Origin: a virus
Virus record (IMG/VR): IMGVR_UViG_3300035696_000001
Strand: one strand, 5' to 3'
Length of the DNA: 64,000 bases
Part shown: positions 21,513 to 37,615 of the stretch, in pieces
Layout: each line of letters starts with the position of its first letter
How positions within the stretch are numbered: position 1 is the first letter of the stretch
Notes under the pieces: generated by a model
What the model was told of the DNA's origin: nothing
Seen by the model: only the letters and a program-made list of their open reading frames with translations
Database searches by the model: none
Program-made: the position numbers and the translations under genes

Positions 21513-21899
21513 GTGAAGCCATCGACTATCGTTGAAGCGATCCGCGCTCAACTCGGACCGCACCTCGTAAAGCCTAACTACAGAAAGTCCATTCCGAGGA
21601 ATGCCGCGCCTTCTTGGGGTTGCTGCTACGTCGCACATGAAGCCCTTTACCACCTATGGGGCAAGGAGAACGGCTTCACGCCTGTTCGCGTTCCCTATAG
21701 GGTCAGCCGCACCATGACCGGGCAGCATTGGTTCCTTGAGCACCGCCCCTCGGGGCTTCAGGTGGACATCACGGCAGACCAGTTCACGAGCCGGATGCCG
21801 GACTACGAGAAAGCGGTGCCCTGCGGGTTCATGACCAAGAAGCCCTCCAAGCGTGCCCAGCGGATCATTGACGTCGTCCGCAAAAACCTCTCAATTTAG
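21513..21899 (+). CDS. Hypothetical protein
   Basis: 128-aa ORF with coding-like composition. Confidence 0.4.
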   Translation: MKPSTIVEAIRAQLGPHLVKPNYRKSIPRNAAPSWGCCYVAHEALYHLWGKENGFTPVRVPYRVSRTMTGQHWFLEHRPSGLQVDITADQFTSRMPDYEKAVPCGFMTKKPSKRAQRIIDVVRKNLSI

Positions 21900-22444
21900 G
21901 ATTTTCCGTGCTCTTTATTTTCGTGGCGTTTTACCCAGTTGCAGTTAGCGCACAATACTTGGTACATCTGGCTTCTTTCGGGATCGGCAACGGCTTTCTT
22001 GTAGTCGTTATAGGCACCTCCTGCTTCTCGCCGAGTTTTATGGCCTCCCCCATGCTTGTGGTCTACCTGTAAACAGCGGAGGTCAGTGCATCCTTTCGTG
22101 CCATCATCGTTGACCCAATGGCAATTCGGGTCGGAACACCGACCGCCTAAAAGTCTTATAAGTTCTGTGTGTAGGCGCTTATTCCCTGACCAAAATTTTT
22201 CCAGATTTATAGGCTTTTTGGGGCAGGTTTCAGTGAATATCCACGGCTGAAAAGCCCCGGTTTTCCATGCTTCATAGTAGCATTTCCGGCATAGTCCTCT
22301 GGCTATTTTTGGCTGGTGAGTGCAAACAAATCTCATTCCGCTAAATACTGAAATCGCTAGTTGACACGAATTCCCTAAATATGTAGTATCAATAACAGAG
22401 AGACTTTGACGGAGACGTTTTCCCTGCGTTTGCAGGGCGGACAT
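21896..22444 (-). CDS. HNH endonuclease (zinc-ribbon type), homing-endonuclease-like
   Basis: VDHKHGGGHK...LCANCNWVKRH with CxxC pairs. Lone minus-strand gene in a plus-strand block, in a lower-GC island. Confidence 0.65.
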   Translation of the reverse strand: MSALQTQGKRLRQSLSVIDTTYLGNSCQLAISVFSGMRFVCTHQPKIARGLCRKCYYEAWKTGAFQPWIFTETCPKKPINLEKFWSGNKRLHTELIRLLGGRCSDPNCHWVNDDGTKGCTDLRCLQVDHKHGGGHKTRREAGGAYNDYKKAVADPERSQMYQVLCANCNWVKRHENKEHGKS

Positions 22445-22479
22445 CCCCCTCTTAGCAAACAGTTTTGATTTGGTTGTCG

Positions 22480-22700
22480 TGCAGCGGTGTTTGGCTGACG
22501 GTTACTTCTTACCTAGAAAATGTCCTTGCCCGCAAGGGCAGGACATGGGGAAACCCTCTCCGTTGCCTCTTGTTCCCTGCCGACAGTTTTCCAGCGCGGC
22601 GGTTTTTGGTTGCGGTTACTTCTGCCTGTAAAGCAGACGAGCGGGGTCCGAATCCCCGGCGACCCGCGAGGGTCGAGGCTTGGGCCTAGTCAAAATACCG
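22480..22700 (+). ncRNA. Candidate Y RNA (YrlA-like) with tRNA-like module, upstream of rsr
   Basis: 300-bp ORF-poor gap before the Ro60 gene. Hairpin with GCAA tetraloop (22521..22546). GGGG-TCCGAAT-CCCC T-arm-like hairpin at 22642..22658 containing GGTCCGA (22645..22651), which is identical to the conserved Ro-binding 5' strand of Y RNAs. CUAGUC 3'-strand-like element at 22686. Boundaries and strand not determined. Confidence 0.35.
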
Positions 22701-22749
22701 AGGCCTATTGTTCCCCGCGCCTAAATTTCTAGCTCAAAAGAGGTGAACC

Positions 22750-24174
22750 ATGGCATCACTCAACGCTGCAACCCGTACCGCAAAGACCCCGCTCCGCACC
22801 GCCGAGGGCGGCAGGGCGGTCGGCATCGGCAAGGTCGCGCAGCTTCAGCGCCTGCTGAACGCCTGCCTCCTGTGGGAGGACAACTTCTACTCGGACGGCA
22901 AGAGCGTCGCCGACCTCATGCGCGAGCTTGTGCGCGAAGTCCCAGCCGAGAAGGTCGCGGAGCTTGCGATCAAGGCCCGCGAGGAGCAGAAGCTCCGCCA
23001 TGCCCCGCTGCTCATCGTCTACGAGATGACGCTCGCCTCGAAGGCTCACCGCGAGCTTGTCGGGGAGACGCTCACCCGCGTGATCCAGCGCCCGGACGAG
23101 ATCACCGAGTTCGTCGCCATCTACTACAAGCTCGGCGGCGGGAAGCGCCCGCTCTCGAAGCAGGTCAAGAAGGGCCTTGCCGCTGCCTTCAACAAGTTCA
23201 ACGAGTATGCGCTCGCAAAGTACAACCGCGACAAGGACGTCAAGCTCGCGGACGTGCTGGCGCTCGTCCACGCCAAGCCGAAGGACAGGGAGCAGGGCCT
23301 CCTCTTCGCGAAGCTTGCGAACAAGGACCGCCTGCCGAAGAAGACCAAGTTCGCGCAGTTCCCGGTGGCCGACACCTACCGCTCGCTCGCGAAGAACTTC
23401 AAGGGTCTGGAGACCCCGGACACTTGGGAGGTCGCGCTCTCTGGCGGCGCGGACAAGAAGGAGGCCTTCGAGCGCCTCATCCGCGAGGACAAGCTCGGCG
23501 GCCTCGCGATGATCCGCAACCTGCGCAACATGCAGGAGGCGGGCGTCTCCGACGCGGTCATCAAGCAGGGCCTTGCGCAGATGAACGCCGAGCGCGTGCT
23601 CCCGTTCCGCTTCATCGCGGCGGCGAAGTACGCCCCGAAGTTCGAGGCGCACCTTGAGGAGGCGATGTTCAAGTGCCTTGAGGGGCACCCGAAGCTGCCG
23701 GGCAAGACCGTGCTGCTCGTGGACGTTTCCGGCTCGATGGATCAGCATGTTTCCTCGAAGTCCGACCTGATGCGCGTGGACGCTGCCGTCGCCCTTGCGA
23801 TGCTCCTCCGCGAGGTCGGCGAGGACGTGGTCGTGTATTCGTTCTCGGAACGGGAAGTCCTCGTCCCGACCCGGCGCGGGTTCGCCCTCGCCGAGGCGAT
23901 CAAGGGGTCGCAGCCCCATTCGGGCACGTACCTCGGCCGCTCCGTGACCGCCGTTGCCCGCGCCGAGGGCGACGCCGACCGCGTCATCGCGATCTCGGAC
24001 GAGCAGGCGCACGACAACGTCTCGAACCCATTCCGCAAGACCGAGTCGAAGGCGTACATGATAAACGTGGCAAGCGAAGCTCACGGAGTCGGATACCGTA
24101 ATGGTTGGAATCACATCGATGGATGGTCTGAGGCTGTGGTAGACTACGTAGTTGCTGAAGAGGCAACAAAATAG
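22750..24174 (+). CDS. rsr: Ro60/Rsr ortholog (TROVE domain + vWA/MIDAS)
   Basis: N-terminal TROVE-like region (LLWEDNFYSDGKSVAD..HAPLLIVYEM). C-terminal vWA domain with the MIDAS motif VLLVDVSGSMD. The overlapping ORFs 22743..23657 and 22756..24114(-) are frame artefacts. Confidence 0.8.
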   Translation: MASLNAATRTAKTPLRTAEGGRAVGIGKVAQLQRLLNACLLWEDNFYSDGKSVADLMRELVREVPAEKVAELAIKAREEQKLRHAPLLIVYEMTLASKAHRELVGETLTRVIQRPDEITEFVAIYYKLGGGKRPLSKQVKKGLAAAFNKFNEYALAKYNRDKDVKLADVLALVHAKPKDREQGLLFAKLANKDRLPKKTKFAQFPVADTYRSLAKNFKGLETPDTWEVALSGGADKKEAFERLIREDKLGGLAMIRNLRNMQEAGVSDAVIKQGLAQMNAERVLPFRFIAAAKYAPKFEAHLEEAMFKCLEGHPKLPGKTVLLVDVSGSMDQHVSSKSDLMRVDAAVALAMLLREVGEDVVVYSFSEREVLVPTRRGFALAEAIKGSQPHSGTYLGRSVTAVARAEGDADRVIAISDEQAHDNVSNPFRKTESKAYMINVASEAHGVGYRNGWNHIDGWSEAVVDYVVAEEATK

Positions 24175-24239: not shown

Positions 24240-24785
24240 ATGCTTGGTCAAAGGTTTGGACGTTACACGGTTATTGAGAAAGCGGGCTACCACACATCGC
24301 CCTGTGGGCAGAAGCAAGCGATGTGGAAATGTCGTTGTGACTGCGGTACGGTGAAGACTGTCATTGGTGCAGCGTTACGAAGGGGCAATACTAAGAGTTG
24401 CGGATGCTTAAAGCTTGAGTTACTTCCTTTGTATCGTTTCAAACTCCCAGAAGGGCACTCCATACGGAACAAAGTGCTAGGAACCTATAAACATAGCGCT
24501 AAAGTACGAAAACTGATATGGCAACTTACGGATGTACAATTTGACATTTTGACGCAACAAAATTGCCATTATTGCGGAACGGCTCCGACAACTGTGCGTC
24601 AGATCAAAAACCTGAACGGACCGTTCGTATACAACGGTATCGACCGGAAGAATAATTCAAAGGGGCACACCCCGGACAATGTGGTATCATGCTGCGAAGT
24701 TTGTAATAAGATGAAGCTGACGATGTCAATCGAAAAATTTTTGGCACATGTACAGCGAATCGTTGCTCATATTCCTAGCATCTAA
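24240..24785 (+). CDS. HNH homing endonuclease
   Basis: N-terminal FGRYTV..W.CRCDCG zinc-ribbon module. HYCGT...NGIDRKNNSKGHTPDNVVSCCEVCNKMK HNH motif. Paralogous to the N-terminus of 58246..59388. Lower-GC island. Confidence 0.65.
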   Translation: MLGQRFGRYTVIEKAGYHTSPCGQKQAMWKCRCDCGTVKTVIGAALRRGNTKSCGCLKLELLPLYRFKLPEGHSIRNKVLGTYKHSAKVRKLIWQLTDVQFDILTQQNCHYCGTAPTTVRQIKNLNGPFVYNGIDRKNNSKGHTPDNVVSCCEVCNKMKLTMSIEKFLAHVQRIVAHIPSI

Positions 24786-25268
24786 GCTGTGAGGAGACCG
24801 AAGTGGTGCATAAGCGCGTGTTCAAGGCGGTAAACCGGAAGATCGACGGCAAGACCACCGTTTCCTACAAGGAAGGCGCTGACGGCACGGGGGTCACCTT
24901 GCCGTCCACCTGCGGGTTCTGCAAGGATCGCCACGGCAACGTGACGTTCGCGTGCCGCTCGCGCAGGGAGCGGAACCGCCACGCGAACGAATGCTCGGAT
25001 CGCGGGTAAAATGGCACAGAATTGCCAACGCTGCGGAAGCTACAAGCATACGACGGACGACCACGACCGCCGCAAGTTCGGAAGGCGGCGGGTTCTGCGG
25101 ACGAAGCCGGTTAAAAAAATGAAGAAGTGAAGATTCAGCGGGCGGTGCCGGACGACCTGCACCCGTCAAAGTGCTCTCTAATCGTCCATGTTCCCCCGCT
25201 TGTCAGCATCAACGAGGCGTTCCCCTCGGCGCTTTTCTGGGGTACAATTGCGGATTGAGGATACCCTG

Positions 25269-28554: not shown

Positions 28555-29088
28555 ATGTCTGAATGTATCAGAGTACTGCCCCTGCGCTATTGGGACGACC
28601 CGGCGCTGTCCAAGGTCTGCGACAAGGTCGGCGACGGCGAGTTCGGGCCACAGCTTGAGGAGTTTGCCCGCCAGCTTGCGGCCACGATGGACGCCAACAA
28701 CGGCATCGGGCTGGCAGCCCCGCAAGTCGGCGTGCTCAGGCGAATGTTCGTGATGCGGTTTCCCGACCACCGGAATGCCGCGCCCATAACCGTGTGCAAC
28801 CCGGTGATGGTTTTCAGCGGGGCGAATTTGGCTGAGAGCGAGGGCTGCCTGAGCGTGCCGGGAGTGCATGTCCCGGTGTTTCGGGCATCGCATGCCAACA
28901 TGACGTACCGCACGCCGTCTGGCGAACACGTGGAATTGCTGCTAGACTTGTGGGACGCTCGCGTGGCGGCCCATGAGAGAGATCATTTAGACGGGATTAT
29001 GATGTTCGACCGGCTCAGGGTGTCGAGGCAGGTCAGCCGGGCGGCGTTGCGCGAGTGGGAGAAGGAAAAGAGGAAGCGGGGACTTTGA
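28555..29088 (+). CDS. def: Peptide deformylase
   Basis: All three PDF motifs present: GIGLAAPQVG, EGCLSVPG and HERDHLDG. Confidence 0.85.
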   Translation: MSECIRVLPLRYWDDPALSKVCDKVGDGEFGPQLEEFARQLAATMDANNGIGLAAPQVGVLRRMFVMRFPDHRNAAPITVCNPVMVFSGANLAESEGCLSVPGVHVPVFRASHANMTYRTPSGEHVELLLDLWDARVAAHERDHLDGIMMFDRLRVSRQVSRAALREWEKEKRKRGL

Positions 29089-29354
29089 GCGACCGTGCAC
29101 AACATTACAAGTTGGCAGGATGTCGCTCTCTCTCCTTGATCTGGTTACCGGGTCTTGTAGTCTCATTGACCGCCTTGGCGAACAAAAAGACTCAGTACCC
29201 ACGATCATCCTCTATCTGGTACGCCTGCATCTGCGGCGCTGAGGCTATTATATGCTCAACTTTGCATTTGTATATAGTTACAGGCATTTCCACTGCTTTC
29301 TTTTTGGTCAACATAGCCTTCGCCGTTTGGCGACCTATTAAGAAGGAGATTTAA

Positions 29355-29585
29355 TTGGCGACGACAGACCTTGACGGCGCGAATCTGCTGCTCCTGCGTG
29401 AGGGCATGCTGGTGACCCTCACCCTCGGCGACAAGAGCTACACCGGCGTCCTTAGGATGCGCAGGGAAGGCGTCCGAGAGTCCTGGTTCATAGCGCTGAT
29501 CTATCGGGCTGGGGACGACGTCCACGAAATCAAGATTCACAGGCGCGAAGGCGCGGTGGAGATCACTGATAAGAAGGAGGTTTGA
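29355..29585 (+). CDS. Hypothetical protein
   Basis: 76-aa ORF after a 270-bp lower-GC non-coding stretch (29089..29354). Confidence 0.35.
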   Translation: MATTDLDGANLLLLREGMLVTLTLGDKSYTGVLRMRREGVRESWFIALIYRAGDDVHEIKIHRREGAVEITDKKEV

Positions 29586-29816
29586 ATGACCCCCTGCGGG
29601 TGCCCGCCAGAGACGTTCTGGACGCTGCTCCATGACGCGGCGCATTGGGAATTCGAGCTTTTCCTGATGCTGGTCTTTGACGGCATCATCGGCGCGATTG
29701 CGTGGCCGTTCATAAAGAAGCACTGGCAGCACCACGTTGAGAGGGACACGGCGGAGGGGCGATGAAGAAGGGGGAAAGTCGAGTCATTATCAAGAGCGAC
29801 GGTCTGGAGGAAAGCA

Positions 29817-30902
29817 GTGGGCGAGTTTACCGAGCAACGGTTTGATTATTCTGCGGGACGCGAAGATGCCCCTGAATTGACTATTATGGTGGGGATCAGC
29901 GGCTCGGGGAAATCTACGCTCGTTAAGCAATGGATAAACCGTGGGCGTGGCGACATCGTGCGCCTGAACCGGGACAGCTTGCGTGCCATGCTGTATATAG
30001 ATGTGCCTTGGAGTAATAATTTGGAGAACTTAACGCGTGACGTGCAAAAGCACGCTGCGATTTTAGCGCTCCAACGGGGTAAGGATGTGATTATTGATGA
30101 TTGTAATCATCTTCGTCAAGTTCGTCAAAAATGGGAAGAGTTTGCCAAGGAAAACCGGGCGAAGTTTCGTATCGTAACAATGACTACAGACCTCGACGTT
30201 TGCATCAAGCGGGATTCCAAGCGCGAGGGTAAGGAAAAAGTTGGCGAGGGTGTGATTCGCCGCCAGTACAAGGATTTGCATGCTTTGGACAGGACTTCTA
30301 GGAAGGAAACGGCTCCGGCGAAGCTGACCCGCCCGTACTTCGAGCGCACCGAGTACCTCAAGAACGGTGGGTGGGTCACCCGCCTGCCCAACGCCAAGTG
30401 GGTGCTGGTGGACGTTGACGGCACGCTGGCGAACCATGTCGGCGTGCGCGGCCCCTACGACGAGTCCCGAGTGCTTGAGGATTCGGTGTGGGAGCCTGTC
30501 GCCGAGATGGTGCGCTCGCTGTACCCTAGCCACAACGTCTGCGTGGTGTCCGGCCGCCACGACTTTTGCGGCGACGACACGTGCGACTGGCTGGAGATGA
30601 ACGCCGTCCCGTTCGACCACATACTGATGCGGTACAGCGGGGACAACCGCTCTGACATTGTCATCAAGCAGGAGCTTCTCGACGAGCTTTCGGCGGTGAT
30701 CGGCAAGGAGAGCATAGCGTTCGTGATCGACGACCGCCCTCGGGTCTGCGAGATGTGGAGGAGCAACGGCCTCGCGGTGAAGCAGGTTTTCGCCGGGGAG
30801 GTCTTGGAAAACCCGACTCTTAAACATGCGGACGGATGCGCCTATGAGAAGCAAACGGGCTACCGGCGCTGCCCGGACTGCGGGGCTTTAGAGTATTTTT
30901 AG
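29817..30902 (+). CDS. pnkp: Polynucleotide kinase-phosphatase (T4 Pnk/PseT-like)
   Basis: N-terminal P-loop kinase GISGSGKST. C-terminal HAD 3'-phosphatase LVDVDGTLA..VVSGR. Same domain order as T4 Pnk. GTG start with GGAGG SD. Confidence 0.8.
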   Translation: MGEFTEQRFDYSAGREDAPELTIMVGISGSGKSTLVKQWINRGRGDIVRLNRDSLRAMLYIDVPWSNNLENLTRDVQKHAAILALQRGKDVIIDDCNHLRQVRQKWEEFAKENRAKFRIVTMTTDLDVCIKRDSKREGKEKVGEGVIRRQYKDLHALDRTSRKETAPAKLTRPYFERTEYLKNGGWVTRLPNAKWVLVDVDGTLANHVGVRGPYDESRVLEDSVWEPVAEMVRSLYPSHNVCVVSGRHDFCGDDTCDWLEMNAVPFDHILMRYSGDNRSDIVIKQELLDELSAVIGKESIAFVIDDRPRVCEMWRSNGLAVKQVFAGEVLENPTLKHADGCAYEKQTGYRRCPDCGALEYF

Positions 30903-30946
30903 TCTGGAAAATCCGGCTTCCGCAGTATTAAACAGCAGAGGCTTGG

Positions 30947-31738
30947 ATGTTCGTTTACCTGATCGTCAACGACGTGAATCTGAAGATTTACGTCGGCAAG
31001 ACCATCAGCAAAAATCTACAACTTTACTTTCAAAAGAAGCTTTGGGACGCAGAGCACCCCGAGTCCTCCCGAGGAAATTCCCATCTTTTTGCTTCTGTTC
31101 GTAAATACGGACGCGAACACTTCCACATCTTTCCGCTGTTCGAGGGTCAAACTAACGAAGAAATCTGCGTCCATGAGAAGCTACTCATAAAGGTTCTCGC
31201 TGTGCAGAATTCTGAGATTGGTTACAACATCTGCCGTGGTGGTGAAGGGCGCATGGGGTCGCACACCGCCGAGACCATCGTCAAAATTAGTAAGTCTAAT
31301 AAAATTACAAAGTCTGACCAGAAATATCGTGCTAAAGCCAGTGAAACCATGAAACAAACATGGAGAATCAATCCGCAAAATCGGATTAGGCTTAGTGAAT
31401 CTACTAAAAATAAATGGTCTACTCCTGAGTTTCGTGCAAAAGCCAGCGGAGGTATAAAGCAACGGTATATAACCGATCCGAATTATCGCTCCCAAATTTC
31501 CGAGGCGGGTAAAAAGCAGTGGATTGAAGCCGATCCTATAGAGCAAGTTAAAAGGGTAGAACGGTTAGTCAAAGCTACGAAAAGAAGGTGGGTAAAGTAC
31601 AGGGAAGAAACCAAAGAACTGACCGCACAAATTGTCAATTTACATCAAAAGGGATGGACTCAAAGGGCCATAGCGCATGAACTGAGCATAGGGAAAAGTA
31701 CAGTTCATAGCCGCTTAAAACAGACAAGAGATTACTAG
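30947..31738 (+). CDS. GIY-YIG homing endonuclease with NUMOD3 repeats and C-terminal HTH
   Basis: VYLIVNDVNLKIYVGKT (GIY) and YNICRGG (YIG). Repeated SHTAETIVKISKSN, ASETMKQTW and LSESTKNKWS NUMOD3 motifs. Markedly AT-richer than its flanks. Confidence 0.75.
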   Translation: MFVYLIVNDVNLKIYVGKTISKNLQLYFQKKLWDAEHPESSRGNSHLFASVRKYGREHFHIFPLFEGQTNEEICVHEKLLIKVLAVQNSEIGYNICRGGEGRMGSHTAETIVKISKSNKITKSDQKYRAKASETMKQTWRINPQNRIRLSESTKNKWSTPEFRAKASGGIKQRYITDPNYRSQISEAGKKQWIEADPIEQVKRVERLVKATKRRWVKYREETKELTAQIVNLHQKGWTQRAIAHELSIGKSTVHSRLKQTRDY

Positions 31739-31779
31739 ACGGCTAGCTTTCCGCCTCTTTTTGTAGGATAATCACTGAC

Positions 31780-32271
31780 ATGGCCTCGAAGAAAAATGAC
31801 ATCGAAAAGGCGCTGGGGAAGATCGGTGAAAACGCTCGTGCGGTCGGCAAGGCGGCGGAGAGCCTGAGCAAAGAGTGGCGTCAGACCCTCGACGACGTCA
31901 ACGAGGCGGACAAGGCATTCGGCGACGAGGTGTTTCAGAATAAGGAAAATTTTGTGGATTTCCTGAGAAGCAAAATCAGAAACGGCAAAACTGAAATCCG
32001 CGTGATGCAGGTTGGGCCGGATGGTCTCCTTACCGACGTCTCGGACAAGGTCAATGCAAAAGACCTCAAACCCGAGGACATCAGCGGCATCCAGACCGAA
32101 AACGGCAGGACAATACCAATCGGTCAGAGCAGGGAAGCCGCCTATCGGCTCTTGCAAGAACTGCTGACCTCAGCATCGGCAGCAAGCCAATTCGGCACAT
32201 CGGAATCGATCAGAAGAATGGAGCTTGTTTTGGCTGAGAGCGACAAAATTTTGGAGCATTGGAAGAAGTGA
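31780..32271 (+). CDS. Hypothetical protein
   Basis: 163-aa ORF, followed by a GC-rich stem-loop. Confidence 0.45.
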   Translation: MASKKNDIEKALGKIGENARAVGKAAESLSKEWRQTLDDVNEADKAFGDEVFQNKENFVDFLRSKIRNGKTEIRVMQVGPDGLLTDVSDKVNAKDLKPEDISGIQTENGRTIPIGQSREAAYRLLQELLTSASAASQFGTSESIRRMELVLAESDKILEHWKK

Positions 32272-32315
32272 CCCCCCTTCGGTATTAGACCCCGAAGAGG
32301 GGTCTGGTACCGAAA

Positions 32316-33434
32316 ATGAAGCTTTTACTCAAGAATATCCTGCCCTTCGACCTGTTCAGGCGCATGCTTGACGAGGGATACGTCCGCTCGCAGGTGCATC
32401 CCCTTTATCCTGAGTTGGTTGTCTTCAACTACACCGAGGCGGCCCAATTTGACCGTGCGTGGAATGAGGCGACCAACGTGTGCCGCGGCCTGGTCGTGCG
32501 GCTCGCAAACGGCGTGCTGGACGACGACGCCGAGGTGTTGGCGCGGCCTTTCAACAAGTTCCATAACCTGAACACTGCCTACGTGCCGGAGACTATGGAG
32601 GCGAGCCTGCCGGACGAGGCACCGCTTGTGACCACGAAGCTTGACGGCTCGATGGGCATCGTGTATTCGTACGACGGTCAATGGTGGGTCGCGACTCGCG
32701 GGTCGTTCGACTCGGATCAGGCACGCCGGGCGACAGCGTGGTACCGCCAGCACATAGCCGTGGGGTTTCCCCAGAACTGGCCCGACGGCGTTACGCCCGT
32801 GTGCGAGATCATCTACCCGGAGAACCGGATCGTCGTGGACTACGACTTCGAAGGATTGGTGTTGCTCTCGATGATCGAGAACGCAACCGGGCGCGAGCTT
32901 GCCCGCGACGAGGTGGAGGCATGGGCGAGAGTCAACGTGCTCCAGATCGTTGATAAGTTTGACAAGACGCTAGCGGAGTGCGCGGCTGAGAACGCGCTGA
33001 ACGAGGAGGGGTACGTTTTGACTTACTCGAACGGCGTGAAGGTGAAGGTGAAGTTCGCGGAGTACGTGCGGCTCCACCGCATCCTTACTGGGTTGAACCC
33101 GAAGGCGATCTGGGAGATGCTTGCCCAGAATTTCGGGGCGGGGGTGGATGCGATCCTTGCAGACCCGAAGATGCCCGTCACCTTCATCGAATGGTTCAAG
33201 GGGTGGGTGGATCAGCTTCGCAGGAAGTACGCGGAGATCGAGCGGGAGGCGCAGGCTGTGTTCGCCGCGCGTCCGCAGTCGCCCGTCCGCAAGGATCAGG
33301 CGCTCTACTTCATGCAGACGCCGCAGCACAAGTCTGTCCTGTTCGCAATGCTCGACGGCAAGGACTACGCCGGGATCATTTGGGACCGCATTGCGCCGAA
33401 GGGCAACCAGACGTTCAAGAAGGACGGAGAATAA
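32316..33434 (+). CDS. rnl: RNA ligase (T4 Rnl-like, ATP-dependent)
   Basis: Motif I TTKLDGSMG (KxDG), motif IV EEGYVL and motif V VKVKVKF. Partner of Pnkp. Confidence 0.7.
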   Translation: MKLLLKNILPFDLFRRMLDEGYVRSQVHPLYPELVVFNYTEAAQFDRAWNEATNVCRGLVVRLANGVLDDDAEVLARPFNKFHNLNTAYVPETMEASLPDEAPLVTTKLDGSMGIVYSYDGQWWVATRGSFDSDQARRATAWYRQHIAVGFPQNWPDGVTPVCEIIYPENRIVVDYDFEGLVLLSMIENATGRELARDEVEAWARVNVLQIVDKFDKTLAECAAENALNEEGYVLTYSNGVKVKVKFAEYVRLHRILTGLNPKAIWEMLAQNFGAGVDAILADPKMPVTFIEWFKGWVDQLRRKYAEIEREAQAVFAARPQSPVRKDQALYFMQTPQHKSVLFAMLDGKDYAGIIWDRIAPKGNQTFKKDGE

Positions 33435-33580
33435 AAGTTCCCGTGCGGTAACATTTCGTTGGTTTTGCCCCAAAACCGACAGAATGCTCCCGTGCGGGAA
33501 CATTGTATTCCAAAGGAACGTTATACTCCAAGTAACTGATCCTGCTGGGGTTATTCCCTTTTCCCTTTCTGGCCTTTTCA

Positions 33581-33600
33581 GGGGACTCCGCTGTATACTA
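33581..33600 (+). promoter_or_regulatory. Repeated promoter-like motif copy 1 (GGGGACTCCGCTGTATACTA)
   Basis: Extended -10-like TGTATACT. 30 nt shared with copy 2. Lies 19 nt before the ATG at 33619. Confidence 0.35.
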
Positions 33601-33618
33601 TAGGCGGAGAAACGATAA

Positions 33619-34995
33619 ATGAAGAAATCTACGGTCTTTTGGATGGTCGTGGCCGCCCTCGCTGTCCGCATCGCTTTCATGGTGGCGTTTGATACGTATC
33701 ACTTCGTTGGCGTAGACGACATGACCAAGGTCGGTGAAACGACGAACATCGCGGCGTCCATCGCCAGGGGGCACGGATTCAGTTCACCGTTCGGCGGCGA
33801 ATACACGGGGCCGACAGCTTGGATTGCCCCCGTCTATCCGTACTTCATTGCCCTTGTGTTCCACTTCTTTGGGATATTCTCGAACGCCTCAGCGGCAGTC
33901 GTTTTCACGATTCAAGCACTGTTTTCCGCCTTGACTGTCATTCCGATTTTGGGCATCGCCAATAAAACTGTCGGGAAGCGTTCCGGTTTGGTAGCCGCTT
34001 GGACATGGACTCTTTTCCCTTGGTTTAGCAAATGGGCATTAACTTGGGAGTGGGAAGTCAGCTTGAGTGCGTTGCTCCTCTCCTTAATCGTTTGGTACAT
34101 GCTCAGTCTGGAAAAGGCAGCCGCCGTTAAGTCGTGGGCTGGGTTTGGAATCCTAGAGGGATTCGCTCAGCTAGTCAATCCGGCACTGAGCGCCGTTCTC
34201 CCGGTTGCATTTGCGTGGCAGGTCTACAAACTGCGATTCAACCGCAAAGAGTGACTCAAGCCGGTCGTGGCGCTGCTGGCGTGCGTCGCCACAATAACAC
34301 CTTGGGTAGTGCGAAATCGCGTTGTGTTCGGACAATGGGTGTTCCTGCGCGGCAACTTCGGTTACGAGTTCGCCCTTGGCAACTACCATAACAGCTTCGG
34401 GCGCGGGTGGGGAGGGTTTCACCCTTCGGGTAACTTGCGCGAATACGACGACTACAAGCGCATGGGCGAGGCGGCTTACATCGAATCCCATAAAGAAAAA
34501 GGCCTCCAGTTTGTGCGCCAGTACCCGGTTGAATTCGTTACGCTAACAGCGAAACGGGTTTCCTACTTTTGGGATGGGAGCGCCGTCGGTTACCGGGCAC
34601 CCGTCGCCAAGCATTGGATTCCGTCCAGCTTCGGCGTGATCTCATTATTGCTGCTTCCAGCCCTGCTGATTACGTACAGGAATCGGGTACCGGCATGGCA
34701 AGCGTTCTTCGGTGTGTTTCTGCTGTACCCGGCACCCTATTATCTTACGTTCAGTCAATTGCGTTACCGGCACGCCGTTGAGCCTCTCATGGTAATTCTA
34801 ATCTCTTACGCCGTGGTCAACGCCATAACTGCGATCTATCAAAGTTTTTTAGGTTTGCGTCTTCCTAGCCTTTTCGGGGGACTCCGCTGTATACTACCGA
34901 CGAAAGCAGCGACGTCTGCGGCACCCGCTGCCCGAAGTCGGAGAAATCCGAAGGGCAAACGTCCTGCAAATTTTATGCTCAAGGACTCGTTATGA
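33619..34995 (+). pseudogene. GT-C fold membrane glycosyltransferase (ArnT/PMT-like) interrupted by a single in-frame TGA at 34252
   Basis: ORFs 33619..34254 and 34267..34995 are in the same frame, separated only by TGA 34252..34254 (NRKE*LKPVVALLA). Together ~455 aa with multiple TM helices and a first-loop VGVDD..GE acidic motif, typical of ArnT/PMT_2. May be a readthrough/recoded gene, a pseudogene or a sequencing error. Confidence 0.45.
34876..34896 (+). promoter_or_regulatory. Repeated promoter-like motif copy 2 (GGGGGACTCCGCTGTATACTA)
   Basis: Same 30-nt element as 33571..33600. Lies ~95 nt upstream of the CCA-enzyme gene start. Confidence 0.3.
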
Positions 34996-36317
34996 GTTGG
35001 AAGCGAGAAAATTTCATCTCGTCATTCCAGATTGCCGCGCACGCCAAGGTGATGTACAAGCTTGAAAACAAGGGCTTCGAAGCTTTCCTTGTCGGCGGCT
35101 GCGTGCGCGACCGGCTTCTCCAACGGCAATCCAGGGACTTCGATGTGACGACCGACGCCACGCCCGACCAGATTCGTGCCATCTTCCCTCACACCATCCC
35201 GGTCGGCGCGAAGTTCGGCGTCGTGGTCGTGCTGATGGACGGCGTGCAGGTCGAAGTTGCAACGTTTCGAAGCGACGGGACTTACACTGACGGTCGGCGA
35301 CCGGACGAAGTCACGTACAGCAGGAACGCAAAGGATGACGTCGTCCGCCGCGATTTCACCATGAACGGCTTGCTCATGGACTCCCTCGGCGACATTATCG
35401 ACCACGTTGACGGTCAGGAAGACATCAAGCACGGAATCATCCGCGCCATCGGCGACCCAAACGTGCGCTTCGCGGAGGATGCGCTCCGCATGATGCGGGC
35501 TGTCCGCTTCGCGGCGCAGCTTGGCTTCAAGATCGAGGAAAAGACCCTTGAAGCGATCAAGAGCAACGCCCGGCTCCTGTCCGCCATCAGCCGGGAGCGC
35601 ATCGCGATGGAGCTTTTCAAGATGCTTTCCGCGCCGTTTCCGCTCAAGGGGATCGTGCCTTTCATTGCGACGGGGCTGTTCCGCTATGCCTTGCCGGAGC
35701 AGTTCCCCGACCATGTGAACATGGCGCGAACCATACAGCGGTTCGGCACGTTCGAGGCGAAGGACGCCATGCTCGGCATGGCTATGCTATTCGCCGACAT
35801 CAACGACTTCTACTGTGGGGGGCTTGCGGATTACCTCAAGCTGTCCAACGAGCAAAAAGACGAGCTTATTTGCATGAAGAGCCACGTTCATAATTTCCAG
35901 CACCACTTAACCGGGGCGTACCGCATGACTGAGGCGCGGATCAAACGCAACCTGCGGTATCCGGGCGTCAGGCTGGCGCTGGAGATCATGACGCAGGACG
36001 AGGTCATGGGCAAGACCGGCTTCGGCATCGAGGCGCTGATGGCGTTCGTGCTCAAGGTCAAGGCGTACAAACCCGAGGAGATCAAGCCGAAGCCGCTGGT
36101 GACGGGCAAGGACTTGATTGACGCTGGCATCCCACCGGGGCCGATCTATACGAGCATCCTGTTCGACATTGAGAGCCACCAGCTTAACGGCGTGTTCACG
36201 ACGAAGGAGCAGGGCATGGAGTTCGTCCGCGAGCGCGTACGCCAAGGAGCGGGTCTGCATGGGCTTGAGTGGGTTTATACGGGCTTGTCCGCAACGGAAG
36301 CGCGGGAGCTAGAATGA
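34992..36317 (+). CDS. cca: tRNA nucleotidyltransferase (CCA-adding enzyme), class II
   Basis: Head-domain motifs LVGGCVRDRLL, RDFDVTTDA, VATFRSDG and DVVRRDFTMNGL (RRD). Confidence 0.8.
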   Translation: MSWKRENFISSFQIAAHAKVMYKLENKGFEAFLVGGCVRDRLLQRQSRDFDVTTDATPDQIRAIFPHTIPVGAKFGVVVVLMDGVQVEVATFRSDGTYTDGRRPDEVTYSRNAKDDVVRRDFTMNGLLMDSLGDIIDHVDGQEDIKHGIIRAIGDPNVRFAEDALRMMRAVRFAAQLGFKIEEKTLEAIKSNARLLSAISRERIAMELFKMLSAPFPLKGIVPFIATGLFRYALPEQFPDHVNMARTIQRFGTFEAKDAMLGMAMLFADINDFYCGGLADYLKLSNEQKDELICMKSHVHNFQHHLTGAYRMTEARIKRNLRYPGVRLALEIMTQDEVMGKTGFGIEALMAFVLKVKAYKPEEIKPKPLVTGKDLIDAGIPPGPIYTSILFDIESHQLNGVFTTKEQGMEFVRERVRQGAGLHGLEWVYTGLSATEARELE

Positions 36318-36868
36318 TCACCCCGCGTTTCAACCAGATCACCCTCCTGCACGGAAGGAACGAGCTTCCGAACGGAAAATTTCCCGGCGTCACCGAGCAC
36401 TTGGAAGCCATCCTGCATGCGGCGTATCCGGCTGTGCTTTTCGCCTGCCCGTTCGTGCCGTCCGACCTTGGTGCCAAGGATGCGTTCTTTTTCGTGCGGA
36501 AGAATTATGTCAGCCGGATGCAGGCCGACTCGCTGCTCGTCGGTCTGGAGCGCGGCGGTCTGATCGCGTGCGCCGTGCAAGATGCCTTTCCTGCGTTGCG
36601 CCTTTCGGTGTTCGCCGCCAACTCGCCCACTGAGGATGACAAGCTCGTCGTGGAGCCGTGCGATTCCCATACCCGCCTTGCCCTGTATTCCAGCGCTTAT
36701 CCCCCAATCAAGGGGCGCTGCGACTGGAAGGCGCTCACGTCAACGGCGTACGACGTTCCGTGGCTGGCGTCCGGCTGCAAGAACCTGTACCCGCTCGCCT
36801 ACCTGATCTCCGCGTACAGCCACGGGGTTGACATGGACAAGCAGGTTGCCATGATGTTCCCCTCCTAG
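36314..36868 (+). CDS. Hypothetical protein
   Basis: Start at the internal Met MITPRF, ATGA-coupled to cca, with GGGAG SD. Confidence 0.4.
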   Translation: MITPRFNQITLLHGRNELPNGKFPGVTEHLEAILHAAYPAVLFACPFVPSDLGAKDAFFFVRKNYVSRMQADSLLVGLERGGLIACAVQDAFPALRLSVFAANSPTEDDKLVVEPCDSHTRLALYSSAYPPIKGRCDWKALTSTAYDVPWLASGCKNLYPLAYLISAYSHGVDMDKQVAMMFPS

Positions 36869-36880
36869 TACAATCGAGGC

Positions 36881-37615
36881 ATGGACAAATGGCCTTCGCT
36901 CCTCATGCTCACACGGCATGGATACTCCGTCGCCAACGAGCGCAAGAACAAGGCTAAGCAGGCGGGTGCAGACTCGTGGGCCGGTATCGCCCGCGACCAG
37001 GACGCGGAACTGACCGCGCTGGGGCACCAGCAATCATTCGAGCTTGGCGTGATGATCGGAAAGTCCGTCAGCATCAATTTCAAGTCCGACCTTCCAGAAG
37101 TTATCATCACGTCGCCGCACCGCCGCGCCAAACAAACCACCGCAGGCATCGTACGGGGCGTTCAAAGCACCCACCCGGACTACAACCCGACCGTCGTCGT
37201 CGAGGAGCGCATCCGAGAGATCGAGTTCGGGATCATGGACGGCATCGACCGCGCCACGTTCCGCAAGCTCTTTTCATCCGAGGCGGATCGCCGGGAGCGC
37301 GACGGGAAGTACTATTACCGCCCGCCCGGAGGCGAGAATCGCCCCGACGTGCGCCTGCGGGTGCATTCCGTCCTCGACACACTGAACCGCGACTATGTCG
37401 GTAAGAAGGTTCTGATCGTCTGCCACAGCGTCGTCGTGCTTGCGTTCAGGAGCCTGATAGAGCGCTGGGAAGAGGACGAATACCTTCAAGTGGACAAGGA
37501 AGACGACGTCAAGAACTGTGGTCTTACGATCTACGACCGCATCGACTACCGGAAGCTCAAACTCCGGGAATACAACAAGGTCGCTCCTGCATCTAACCCG
37601 GTAGAGGCTCCATGA
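36881..37615 (+). CDS. Histidine phosphatase superfamily protein (PGAM-like)
   Basis: LTRHGYS (RHG catalytic motif) and a second His in CHSVVVLAF. Possible RNA 2'/3'-end phosphatase role in the RNA-repair context. Confidence 0.6.
   Translation: MDKWPSLLMLTRHGYSVANERKNKAKQAGADSWAGIARDQDAELTALGHQQSFELGVMIGKSVSINFKSDLPEVIITSPHRRAKQTTAGIVRGVQSTHPDYNPTVVVEERIREIEFGIMDGIDRATFRKLFSSEADRRERDGKYYYRPPGGENRPDVRLRVHSVLDTLNRDYVGKKVLIVCHSVVVLAFRSLIERWEEDEYLQVDKEDDVKNCGLTIYDRIDYRKLKLREYNKVAPASNPVEAP

What the first reader, a model, noticed from the sequence alone, without database searches (positions are those of the whole stretch)
22445..22745. Candidate phage Y RNA (YrlA-like) immediately upstream of the Ro60 gene
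The 300-bp gap before rsr has no credible ORF. It contains a near-perfect hairpin closed by a GCAA tetraloop (22521..22546) and a GGGG-TCCGAAT-CCCC T-arm-like hairpin (22642..22658). The T-arm-like hairpin holds the heptamer GGTCCGA (22645..22651), identical to the conserved Ro60-binding 5' strand of metazoan and bacterial Y RNAs. A CUAGUC element (22686..22691) resembles the pairing 3' strand. Two ~33-nt imperfect direct repeats sit at 22481..22513 and 22594..22626. Bacterial YrlA RNAs combine an Rsr-binding stem with a tRNA-like module and are encoded next to rsr. The sequence does not prove expression or strand.
Basis: partly seen in the sequence, partly recalled or inferred. Interest (0 to 1): 0.7.

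Follow-up and report, generated by a model that had tools for sequence, protein, structure and literature searches.

The report
Tandem phage Y RNAs before Ro60
The DNA in front of this uncultivated phage's Ro60 gene most likely encodes two small structured Y RNAs, one with a tRNA-like domain, and a third lies downstream; these are the expected RNA partners of Ro60, so this is a divergent example of a known system, not a new one.

Summary
The proposed anatomy does not.

- GGTCCGA (22645-22651) sits in the T-loop of a tRNA-like T arm. All ten aligned relatives have TTCGA there, and the heptamer occurs five times in the window.
- CTAGTC lies in a junction after a reduced D hairpin. It does not pair with GGTCCGA.
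- The two "direct repeats" are the 5' strands of two tandem modules, A (22475-22585) and B (22594-22720).

Each module has a terminal helix with a bulged C, a GG:CC clamp, a U-rich internal loop opposite UUGUUCC, a second helix, and GUUACUUC.

- Module A ends in hairpins, including the GCAA hairpin.
- Module B carries V, T, acceptor-like and mini-D arms in YrlA order.
- A weaker third module lies at 25137-25201.

About a dozen metagenomic relatives conserve both modules with compensatory changes. A model built from module B finds similar elements beside Ro60 genes, 112 of 113 on the Ro60 strand. Rfam's YrlA model misses the window entirely. Expression and Ro60 binding are untested.

Verdict: new member of a known kind; moderate interest.

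The parts
22361..22389 (+). Sigma-70-type promoter: TTGACA, 17-nt spacer, TAGTAT. Predicted +1 at about 22396-22397.
   Evidence: It is the only perfect match to TTGACA-N17-TANNAT in the window. TTGACA and a TAnnnT hexamer at the same spacing are kept in all relatives. Function is inferred, not shown.
22397..22474 (+). Transcript leader. It holds the invariant 5' end AGAGAGACUUUGACGG (22397-22412), a hairpin CCCUGC-GUUU-GCAGGG (22422-22437), and an A/U-rich linker.
   Evidence: The 16-mer is identical in nearly all relatives and unique in the window. The hairpin sequence differs between relatives but a hairpin is always there. Its role is unexplained.
22475..22585 (+). Y RNA module A (YrlB-like).
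- P0: 22476-22479 with 22581-22584.
- P1: GCAG-C-GG (22481-22487, C22485 bulged) with CC-CUGC (22575-22580).
- Internal loop: UGUUU opposite UCUUGUU.
- P2: 22493-22501 with 22560-22567.
- GUUACUUC: 22501-22508.
- Apical hairpins: 22520-22546 (GCAA loop) and 22547-22556.
   Evidence: 12 distinct homologues. P0-P2 are 93% paired, with 17 double-change cells against 6.6 in shuffles. The same fold is the MFE in every homologue. Folding z-score is -4.5. The module-B model R1 hits it at 32.7 bits, E 2.7e-4.
22594..22720 (+). Y RNA module B (YrlA-like, with a tRNA-like domain).
- P1: GCGCGG-C-GG (22594-22602, C22600 bulged) with CC-CCGCGC (22713-22720).
- Internal loop: UUUUU opposite UAUUGUU.
- P2: 22608-22615 with 22698-22705.
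- GUUACUUC: 22615-22622.
   Evidence: In alignment A4, 34 pairs are 98.3% paired. Ten pairs changed on both sides against 3.4 in shuffles (0/500) and 0-2 in slid controls. RNAalifold and single-sequence MFE folds agree.
22621..22637 (+). Module B V arm: UCUGC-CUGUAAA-GCAGA (5-bp stem, 7-nt loop).
   Evidence: Two of the five pairs show compensatory changes, G-C to C-G and C-G to U-A or A-U.
22642..22658 (+). Module B T arm: CGGGG-UCCGAAU-CCCCG.
   Evidence: The stem covaries (C-G and G-C to A-U in L043). The loop is UUCGAnU in all 10 other homologues. A weak Rfam match to tRNA-like mascRNA covers this arm.
22659..22676 (+). Module B acceptor-like stem-loop: GCGACCC-GCGA-GGGUCGA (6 bp plus a G-A mismatch at the base).
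   Evidence: Covariation at 70:83 and 68:85. The loop sequence and length vary.
22677..22697 (+). Reduced D element GGC-UUGG-GCC (22677-22686), followed by the junction UAGUCAAAAUA (22687-22697).
   Evidence: The sequence is invariant in the mini-D relatives, so pairing cannot be tested by covariation. Five other relatives have a 4-bp D arm, GUGYAAYGGYAGCAC, at this place.
22740..24174 (+). Shine-Dalgarno GAGGUG (22740-22745) and the rsr/Ro60 gene (22750-24174, 474 aa).
   Evidence: Pfam TROVE 65 bits plus a vWA domain; PHROG 850 'RNA-binding protein'. The closest solved structure is the Thermus phage phiLo Ro60, 9KOP/9L5Y, E 1.3e-29.
25137..25201 (+). Y RNA module C, a simple hairpin type. 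P1 is AGCGGG-C-GG with CC-CCCGCU. P2 is GGACGA with UCGUCC. GUUACUUC is lost.
   Evidence: R1 gives only 10.9 bits, E 0.3, with filters off. It is nonetheless homologous to 27-34-bit hits at the same position downstream of rsr in relatives. The same fold appears in 8 of the 9 homologues; L035's MFE differs slightly. Folding z-score is -3.4.

Best explanation
The region is a polycistronic Y-RNA locus.

1. A sigma-70-type promoter (22361-22389) drives one transcript carrying a short leader, Y RNA A (22475-22585), Y RNA B (22594-22720) and the rsr/Ro60 mRNA. This is inferred.
2. Host RNases cut the A/U-rich single-stranded linkers and release the two RNAs. This is inferred by analogy with M. smegmatis, where YrlA and YrlB are processed from one precursor upstream of rsr.
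3. Phage Ro60 binds each RNA at the terminal helix formed by its 5' and 3' ends. That helix has a single bulged C, a GG:CC clamp and an internal loop opposite UUGUUCC. This is inferred from the position of the GNCGAA motif in the wider family and from the stem-bulge contact in the phiLo Ro60-Yrl2 complex.
4. The distal parts act as effector modules. Both RNAs have a single-stranded pyrimidine-rich GUUACUUC. B also has a tRNA-like fold with V, T, acceptor-like and reduced D arms. By analogy with D. radiodurans, S. Typhimurium and phage phiLo, these tether or gate Ro60 towards host PNPase or tRNA-handling enzymes.
5. The RNP then reshapes RNA decay or repair during infection, next to the phage's own Pnkp, RNA ligase and CCA-adding enzyme genes. 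This last step is speculative.

A third RNA of the same type (C, 25137-25201) lies downstream.
For: Partner protein and architecture:
- rsr is a bona fide TROVE+vWA Ro60.
- Module B has the published YrlA element order (one search compared).

Conservation and covariation:
- Both modules are conserved in about 12 distinct relatives and covary.
- Each homologue folds into the same architecture on its own.

Family-wide signal from model R1:
- In the window it finds only these elements.
- In 85 sources it gives 113 matches, 112 on the Ro60 strand, mostly within about 1.4 kb upstream of Ro60.
- 60 of them aligned show 95.7% pairing and 521 double-change cells against 149 in shuffles.
- They share the signature: stem, bulge, GGYG...AG, helix, GUUACUUC ... 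helix, UUGUUCC, stem.

Link to YrlA:
- Rfam's YrlA model gives sub-threshold hits (30-52 bits) at several of these elements in phages Sopo, CcrColossus and Gurke, and in D. gobiensis.

Strand:
- About 90 of 1620 paired cells are G-U wobbles, which would be mismatches on the other strand.
- An invariant G-U sits in module A P2.

Precedent:
- YrlA RNAs were found in most phage genomes searched (22 phages reported), and YrlA/YrlB upstream of rsr come from one precursor.
- Two Yrl RNAs upstream of the phiLo Ro60 gene bind it and form ternary complexes with PNPase.
Against: - There are no expression, end-mapping or binding data.
- Rfam YrlA and Y_RNA give no hit in the window, even at E<=10 on 551 nt.
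- The GNCGAAN0-1G / CGAA motif that contributes to binding in phiLo is degenerate here: GGUGUUUG in A and GGUUUUUG in B.
- The T-loop has C where tRNAs and YrlA have U55 (pseudouridine).
- The D arm is reduced to an invariant 3-bp hairpin, so its pairing is untested.
- Module B's folding energy is not exceptional (z -1.5), and the minus strands fold about as well.
- No separate promoters or terminators flank the individual RNAs, so release from the mRNA leader is an assumption.
Confidence: 0.8

Rival explanations
1. The modules are cis-acting parts of the rsr mRNA 5' leader. Ro60 binds its own leader to autoregulate translation or stability, and no free small RNAs accumulate.
For: There is a single promoter, and no convincing terminator lies between the modules and rsr. 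The only terminator-like match, 22595-22614, is inside P1/P2 of module B. In relatives, GGCGGTGATAGG replaces GGCGGTTTTTGG within that predicted stem-loop. The SD starts 20 nt after module B.
Against: Modules of the same type also lie downstream of Ro60: module C here, L006 4315-4449, L007 4300-4432. They occur in arrays of up to about 7 (CcrColossus), which a leader role does not explain. In M. smegmatis the equivalent upstream RNAs are processed and Rsr-bound. The two roles are not mutually exclusive.
Confidence: 0.12
2. One reading: one Y RNA whose Ro60 site is a terminal stem pairing GGUCCGA (22645-22651) with CUAGUC (22686-22691).
Against: GGUCCGA is the loop and 5' stem of a covarying T arm. 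All 10 other homologues read UUCGA. The heptamer is at chance frequency in the window. No fold pairs it with CUAGUC. An acceptor-like hairpin and a D hairpin lie between them.
Confidence: 0.01
3. A decayed or permuted tRNA gene, or tRNA-derived debris, with no link to Ro60.
For: A T arm with a near-canonical loop, a 6-7-bp acceptor-like stem, a weak mascRNA-type hit, and tRNA genes next to Ro60 in other phages.
Against: ARAGORN and Rfam tRNA find nothing in the window. The acceptor stem is closed by a loop and the arm order is T, acceptor, D, as in YrlA. The domain is framed by a conserved, covarying stem that module A shares without any tRNA part. Conservation rules out debris.
Confidence: 0.02
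4. Signals for the minus strand, such as a promoter, 5' region or terminator of the divergent HNH-like ORF 21896-22444.
For: The long ORF overlaps 22337-22444. A terminator-like hairpin is called on the minus strand at 22537-22524. The minus strands fold about as stably.
Against: Relatives lack that ORF altogether yet keep the whole region. G-U pairs, T-loop orientation and 112 of 113 model hits point to the Ro60 strand. The minus-strand 'terminator' would lie upstream of that gene, not after it.
Confidence: 0.03

Closest known systems
YrlA (Rfam RF02553; Chen et al. 2014, PMC4201824): bacterial and phage tRNA-like Y RNA
   Same: Encoded within a few hundred nt of rsr on the same strand. The 5' and 3' ends form the stem that carries the Ro60 site. 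YUAY (here UUAC) comes next, then V arm, T arm, acceptor-like stem-loop closed by a loop, D element and 3' strand with a UUGU motif. It is accompanied by a second, simpler Y RNA.
   Different: No Rfam hit at any threshold tried. The D arm is cut down to GGC-UUGG-GCC instead of the near-invariant GUAGCUCA..GGUAGAGC. GNCGAA is replaced by GGU(G/U)UUUG. The terminal helix has a bulged C. The T-loop has C at the position of U55.
YrlB / Yrn2-type simple Y RNAs (S. Typhimurium, M. smegmatis, D. radiodurans)
   Same: Modules A and C are long stems made from the 5' and 3' ends, with the same Ro-site signature and a pyrimidine-rich distal single strand. They are encoded in tandem with the tRNA-like RNA.
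   Different: Module A ends in a three-way junction with two or three small hairpins rather than one small loop. Sequence relatedness to YrlB was not compared here.
Thermus phage phiLo Yrl1/Yrl2 with phiRo60 (PMC12135203; PDB 9KOP, 9L5Y)
   Same: Two Y-like RNAs directly upstream of a phage Ro60 gene. phiRo60 is the closest solved relative of the window's Ro60 (E 1.3e-29). A stem-bulge-stem is the binding site. The host supplies PNPase.
   Different: The phiLo RNAs are simple hairpins identified by a CGAA motif, which is absent here. No tRNA-like domain is reported there. The protein relationship is distant (107 bits over 457 residues).
Metazoan Y RNA (Rfam RF00019)
   Same: A terminal helix of 5' and 3' ends with a single bulged C on the 5' strand and a UUG-containing 3' strand. 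It partners with Ro60.
   Different: The GGUCCGA in the window is not in that helix. There is no Rfam hit, no tRNA-like domain in metazoan Y RNAs, and the transcription system differs.
tRNA and tRNA-like RNAs (mascRNA type)
   Same: A T arm with 5-bp stem and 7-nt loop, an acceptor-like stem stacked next to it, and GG in a D-like loop.
   Different: The topology is permuted and closed. There is no anticodon arm in the tRNA position. ARAGORN and Rfam tRNA do not detect it.

Membership tests
YrlA (Rfam RF02553) | Scores at or above the family's gathering threshold (69 bits) with the Rfam covariance model | tested here: not met
   There is no match in the whole window at gathering, and none at E<=10 on 22250-22800. 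As a positive control, the same library scores R. etli YrlA at 92 bits.
YrlA (Chen et al. 2014 definition) | Encoded within 4 kb of the Ro60 gene on the same strand | tested here: met
   Module B ends 29 nt before the rsr start codon and module A 164 nt before it, both on the + strand.
YrlA (Chen et al. 2014 definition) | Stem formed by the 5' and 3' ends, enclosing the rest of the RNA | tested here: met
   P1 and P2 are 95-100% paired with compensatory changes.
YrlA (Chen et al. 2014 definition) | GNCGAAN0-1G motif near the 5' end (candidate Ro60 contact) | tested here: not met
   At the homologous place the window has GGUGUUUG (A) and GGUUUUUG (B). Relatives L036, L037 and L039 have GGUGAUAG, and distant phage modules have GGUGAAAG or GGCGUAG.
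YrlA (Chen et al. 2014 definition) | Element order YUAY, V stem-loop, T arm, acceptor-like stem-loop, D arm | tested here: met
   UUAC, V (22621-22637), T (22642-22658), AS (22659-22676) and the D element (22677-22686) occur in that order.
YrlA (Chen et al. 2014 definition) | Near-invariant T arm with a UUCGA-type loop (U55 pseudouridylated by TruB) | tested here: inconclusive
   The 5-bp stem and 7-nt loop are present and covary. The window's loop is UCCGAAU, with C at the U55 position, while relatives have UUCGAnU. Modification cannot be tested here.
YrlA (Chen et al. 2014 definition) | Near-invariant D arm (GUAGCUCA..GGUAGAGC) able to make tRNA-type tertiary contacts | tested here: not met
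   The window has only GGC-UUGG-GCC, a 3-bp invariant hairpin. Five relatives have a 4-bp GUGYAAYGGYAGCAC arm. L004 and L008 have the canonical sequence.
Y RNA in the functional sense | Stable small RNA bound by Ro60 in vivo | not testable with these tools
   This needs Northern blots or RNA-seq and Ro60 co-immunoprecipitation or EMSA.
Metazoan Y RNA (RF00019) | GGUCCGA on the 5' strand of a bulged terminal helix, paired with a UUGAC-type 3' strand | tested here: not met
   The heptamer lies in the T arm, is not conserved, and there is no Rfam hit. A bulged-C terminal helix exists, but with a different sequence.
tRNA | Cloverleaf with open acceptor ends and an anticodon arm, detected by ARAGORN or Rfam RF00005 | tested here: not met
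   There are 0 tRNA genes in the window.
phiLo-type Yrl RNAs | Stem-bulge-stem upstream of a phage Ro60 gene, with a CGAA motif in the bulge | tested here: inconclusive
   The stem-bulge-stem and its position are met. CGAA is absent.

The most novel reading that the evidence does not exclude
In this clade of uncultivated large phages, the Ro60-binding stem is fixed while the effector domain of the rsr-proximal Y RNA is swapped between close relatives. It is a full tRNA-like domain in some, a minimal-D tRNA-like domain in the window, and absent in the nearest relatives (Ro60 90% identical). The canonical CGAA contact motif has drifted to a U-run. Together with the neighbouring Pnkp, Rnl1-type ligase and CCA-adding enzyme genes, this could mean the tRNA-like Y RNA is a fast-evolving decoy or scaffold. 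It might couple Ro60 to phage tRNA repair, or to evasion of host tRNA-cleaving defence nucleases, rather than simply tethering PNPase.
Probability: 0.12. Interest if true: 0.65.

Novelty: new member of a known kind. Interest (0 to 1): 0.35.

Why it matters
Ro60-Y RNA particles are a conserved RNA-surveillance device, and their role in phages is barely explored. There is one biochemical study, on Thermus phage phiLo.

- This locus shows that a whole set of phage Y RNAs falls below the Rfam YrlA threshold. They share a simple signature: a bulged stem, GGYG..., GUUACUUC, and UUGUUCC.
- In published genomes they are therefore left unannotated, and in CcrColossus and Gurke an annotated tRNA lies inside a match to the model.
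- The natural series of full, reduced and absent tRNA-like domains on an otherwise constant Ro60-binding stem could be used to ask what the tRNA mimic is for.
- The loss of the CGAA motif gives a test of what Ro60 actually recognises.

For genome annotation, the practical result is three ncRNA genes and one promoter in a region that gene callers leave empty or cover with a spurious ORF.

Tried and rejected
- **Rfam searches.** Gathering threshold on the whole window and E<=10 on 551 nt gave no Y_RNA or YrlA hit. I first wondered whether Rfam lacked the family. A positive control on an R. etli plasmid showed it is there.
- **tRNA detection.** ARAGORN found no tRNA.
- **Close phages.** Megablast against 50,697 phage records found nothing.
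- **Motif scan of viral contigs.** GGGCCTAGTCAAA(N)TAC returned the three known relatives plus five chance matches, four of them inside coding sequence resembling DNA polymerase (my reading of the sequence).
- **Regex module finder.** My hand-written finder was too rigid and missed the window's own modules. I replaced it with a covariance model.
- **Genome scan.** A T-arm pattern scanned against GTDB species genomes gave 0 hits, so there is no host or prophage clue.
- **Folding energy.** It does not separate the strands, and it is unremarkable for module B. Strand assignment therefore rests on G-U pairs, motif orientation and model hits.
- **Stop-free stretches.** A comparison across relatives was uninformative. 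Frame-breaking indels are the better argument against coding.
- **Apical hairpins and V arm.** MAFFT alignments put the apical hairpins of module A, and the V arm of full-D relatives, out of register. I did not count covariation there and relied on per-sequence folds.
- **Leader pairing.** I looked by eye for pairing between the invariant leader GAGAG and downstream CUCUC-type tracts. It was not consistent across relatives, so I dropped it.
- **RNase P and CCA addition.** I considered cleavage and CCA addition at the acceptor-like stem, as in M. smegmatis. The window's loop GCGA would allow G-C + CA, but the loop is not conserved in relatives, so this stays a low-probability idea.

Full report
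**Setting**

The window looks like part of a large uncultivated phage.
- The ORF at 22750-24174 is a TROVE+vWA Ro60 protein. It scores 65 bits against Pfam TROVE and matches PHROG 850 'RNA-binding protein'.
- Its nearest isolates are Brevundimonas and Caulobacter jumbo phages, at 45-49% identity.
- The closest solved structure is the Ro60 of Thermus phage phiLo, 9KOP/9L5Y, E 1.3e-29.
- Exactly this protein is encoded on seven metagenome-derived contigs; one of the three shown is from JGI sample 3300033405.
- Further downstream the window encodes a Pnkp-type kinase-phosphatase, an Rnl1-type RNA ligase, a CCA-adding enzyme and a histidine phosphatase. Ro60 therefore sits beside an RNA-repair gene set.

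**Checking the observation**

- the GCAA hairpin at 22520-22546;
- CGGGG-TCCGAAT-CCCCG at 22642-22658;
- GGTCCGA at 22645-22651;
- CTAGTC at 22686-22691;
- two imperfect repeats, which need a 2-nt shift and one gap to align.

The heptamer itself is not informative. It occurs five times in the window, against about eight expected by my arithmetic.

**Standard tools give nothing**

Rfam finds no family at gathering threshold in the whole window. It finds no Y_RNA or YrlA even at E<=10 on 551 nt. Only a 13.9-bit match of the T-arm region to tRNA-like mascRNA appears. ARAGORN finds no tRNA. This is not because the family is missing from the library. The same library scores R. etli YrlA at 92 bits and a D. 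gobiensis RNA at 49.6 bits.

**Relatives**

Searching with the Ro60 protein gave 16 viral and 67 metagenomic loci. About fifteen have Ro60 at 64-90% identity. In all of them with enough upstream sequence, the same arrangement is present:
- a TTGACA-N17-TAnnnT promoter;
- an invariant AGAGAGACUUUGACGG at the predicted start;
- a variable hairpin;
- two modules that each contain G(U/A)UACUUC and later UUGUUCC (CUGUUCC in L038, L041 and L095).

In the window the promoter (22361-22389) is the only perfect match to that consensus. The 16-mer is unique in the window.

**Anatomy of the two modules**

*Module A (22475-22585)*
- Helix P0.
- P1, GCAG-C-GG with CC-CUGC, where the C is bulged.
- An internal loop, UGUUU opposite UCUUGUU.
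- P2, GGC-U-GACGG with CCGUU-GCC.
- Single-stranded UUACUUC.
- Two or three small hairpins.

*Module B (22594-22720)*
- It has the same P1 (GCGCGG-C-GG with CC-CCGCGC), loop, P2 and UUACUUC.
- It then carries a 5-bp/7-nt V arm, the T arm, a 6-7-bp hairpin closed by GCGA, a 3-bp hairpin with a UUGG loop, and the junction UAGUCAAAAUA.
- This is the order published for YrlA: 5' strand, YUAY, V, T, acceptor-like stem-loop, D, 3' strand.

GGUCCGA is the T-loop. CUAGUC is junction sequence after the D element.

**Tests of the structure**

- Module B, seven sequences: 34 pairs are 98.3% paired. Ten pairs changed on both sides, against 3.4 +/- 1.5 in shuffles (0/500) and 0-2 when partners are slid by 1-3 columns. 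P1, P2, V, T and the acceptor-like stem each have two such pairs. The mini-D hairpin never varies, so it is untested.
- Module A, twelve sequences: P0-P2 are 93% paired, with 17 double-change cells against 6.6 (0/500). The count of covarying pairs is not exceptional (5 against 3.6; 72/500).
- RNAalifold recovers the same helices.
- Nearly every homologue folds into the same architecture on its own (L043's module B departs).
- Folding energy alone is weak evidence. The z-scores are -4.5 for A and -1.5 for B, and the reverse strands fold about as well.

**Family-wide picture**

I built a covariance model from module B (R1). In the window it hits module B itself (151 bits), module A (32.7 bits, E 2.7e-4) and nothing else with default filters. 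In 85 sources it gives 113 matches at E<=1. Of these, 112 are on the Ro60 strand, most within about 1.4 kb upstream of Ro60.

Sixty matches aligned to the model show 95.7% pairing and 521 double-change cells against 149 in shuffles. That alignment is fitted to the model, so it leans towards the structure. They share one signature:
- a stem of 4-6 bp;
- one bulged base;
- GG clamped to CC;
- GGYG(A/U)..AG;
- a second helix;
- GUUACUUC ... second helix;
- G(C/U)UUGUUCC and the closing stem.

About 90 of the paired cells are G-U wobbles, which supports the Ro60 strand.

Rfam's YrlA model gives sub-threshold scores (30-52 bits) at several of these elements in Xanthomonas phage Sopo, Caulobacter phage CcrColossus and Brevundimonas phage Gurke. 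The group therefore grades into YrlA, but lies outside the curated threshold.

**What differs in the window**

- At the place of the published GNCGAAN0-1G motif, the window has GGUGUUUG (A) and GGUUUUUG (B). Some relatives keep GGUGAUAG. In phiLo, each CGAA base contributes 3-4-fold to binding.
- The T-loop has C at the U55 position. All ten aligned relatives have U.
- The D arm is a minimal hairpin. Five relatives have a 4-bp GUGYAAYGGYAGCAC arm. The two closest relatives (Ro60 90% identical) have no tRNA-like domain at all in module B, which is only 68 nt.

**A third module**

With filters off, R1 gives a weak match at 25136-25201 (10.9 bits, E 0.3). It is homologous to 27-34-bit matches found several hundred nt to about 1 kb downstream of rsr in relatives. 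It has the same bulged P1, with covariation, and the same fold.

**Mechanism**

Shown here: conservation, covariation, architecture, position and strand.

Inferred:
- transcription from the consensus promoter as one precursor with rsr. No credible terminator intervenes, because the one pattern match, at 22595-22614, lies inside module B;
- processing at the A/U-rich linkers;
- Ro60 binding at the bulged P1 region;
- an effector role for GUUACUUC and the tRNA-like domain.

The inferences rest on published work. In M. smegmatis, YrlA and YrlB lie upstream of rsr, come from one precursor and are bound by Rsr. In D. radiodurans, Y RNA tethers Rsr to PNPase. For phage phiLo, two upstream Yrl RNAs bind phiRo60 through a stem-bulge-stem, and the paper reports that ternary complexes with host PNPase attenuate RNA degradation.

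**Rivals**

- *Purely cis-acting autoregulatory leader.* This is the only serious alternative. It fits the lack of separate promoters and terminators. It does not fit modules downstream of Ro60 or arrays of up to about seven.

**Novelty**

YrlA RNAs were reported in most phage genomes searched in 2014, 22 phages in all. Tandem Yrl RNAs upstream of a phage Ro60 were characterised in 2025. This locus is therefore a new, divergent member of a known kind. Its interest lies in three things:
- it escapes the Rfam model;
- the CGAA motif is degenerate;
- close relatives form a natural series of full, reduced and absent tRNA-like domains.

Noticed in passing
window 25137-25201 (+): A third Y-like RNA (module C) lies about 960 nt downstream of rsr, after an HNH gene and two small ORFs. 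It is conserved in relatives at the same relative position. The window's copy has lost GUUACUUC.
   Followed up: yes
window 21896-22444 (-) and 24240-24785 (+): Two HNH-type endonuclease ORFs flank the Y-RNA/rsr unit. The upstream one (CxxC...DH...N...CxxC by eye, no Pfam or PHROG hit) has no homologue in any fetched locus, and relatives run straight from the homologue of 21513-21899 to the promoter. The downstream one (PHROG HNH hits) is missing at least from L033. They look like mobile insertions. The upstream ORF as listed would overlap the promoter, so its real start is probably the Met at 22336.
   Followed up: partly
window 28555-37615 (+): An RNA-repair style gene set sits 5-13 kb from rsr: peptide deformylase (28555-29088), Pnkp kinase-phosphatase (29817-30902), Rnl1-type RNA ligase (32316-33434), CCA-adding enzyme (34992-36317) and histidine phosphatase (36881-37615). 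The window has no tRNA genes.
   Followed up: partly
window 22397-22412 (+): The invariant 16-mer AGAGAGACUUUGACGG sits at the predicted transcription start. It is identical in nearly all relatives and unique in the window. No consistent pairing partner was found, and its function is unexplained.
   Followed up: partly
L043 1376-1473 (+): A bona fide bacterial small SRP (4.5S) RNA (Rfam 66.6 bits, gathering 40) lies between the Y RNAs and rsr on a metagenomic contig whose Ro60 is 64% identical. L032 has a related CAGGUCCGCAAGGAA stretch at the same place.
   Followed up: no
L033 1118-1185 and the same place in L032, L034, L037, L039, L044, L077: A conserved structured element of about 60 nt (CGCUUG..UACGCU..AGCGUA..CAAGCG, with compensatory changes in L034) lies between module B and rsr in many relatives. 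It is absent from the window and has no Rfam match.
   Followed up: partly
L028 (Caulobacter phage CcrColossus JX100810, 261-1456), L027 (Brevundimonas phage Gurke, 1014-1445), L029 (Xanthomonas phage Sopo, 787-1390): The long 'empty' gaps upstream of the TROVE genes of published phages hold arrays of 3 to about 7 Y-like modules. The annotated tRNA-Gln of CcrColossus and tRNA-Ser of Gurke lie inside such matches.
   Followed up: partly
L011 2730-2880 (+): A complete, normally ordered tRNA (Rfam 61.9 bits; ARAGORN calls it tRNA-SeC, anticodon tca) appears to be embedded between a Y-type 5' strand (GGAG-UGGCUAG..UUACAAC) and a Y-type 3' strand (UUUUUCC-CUCC). This looks like a Y-stem/tRNA chimera.
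   Followed up: no
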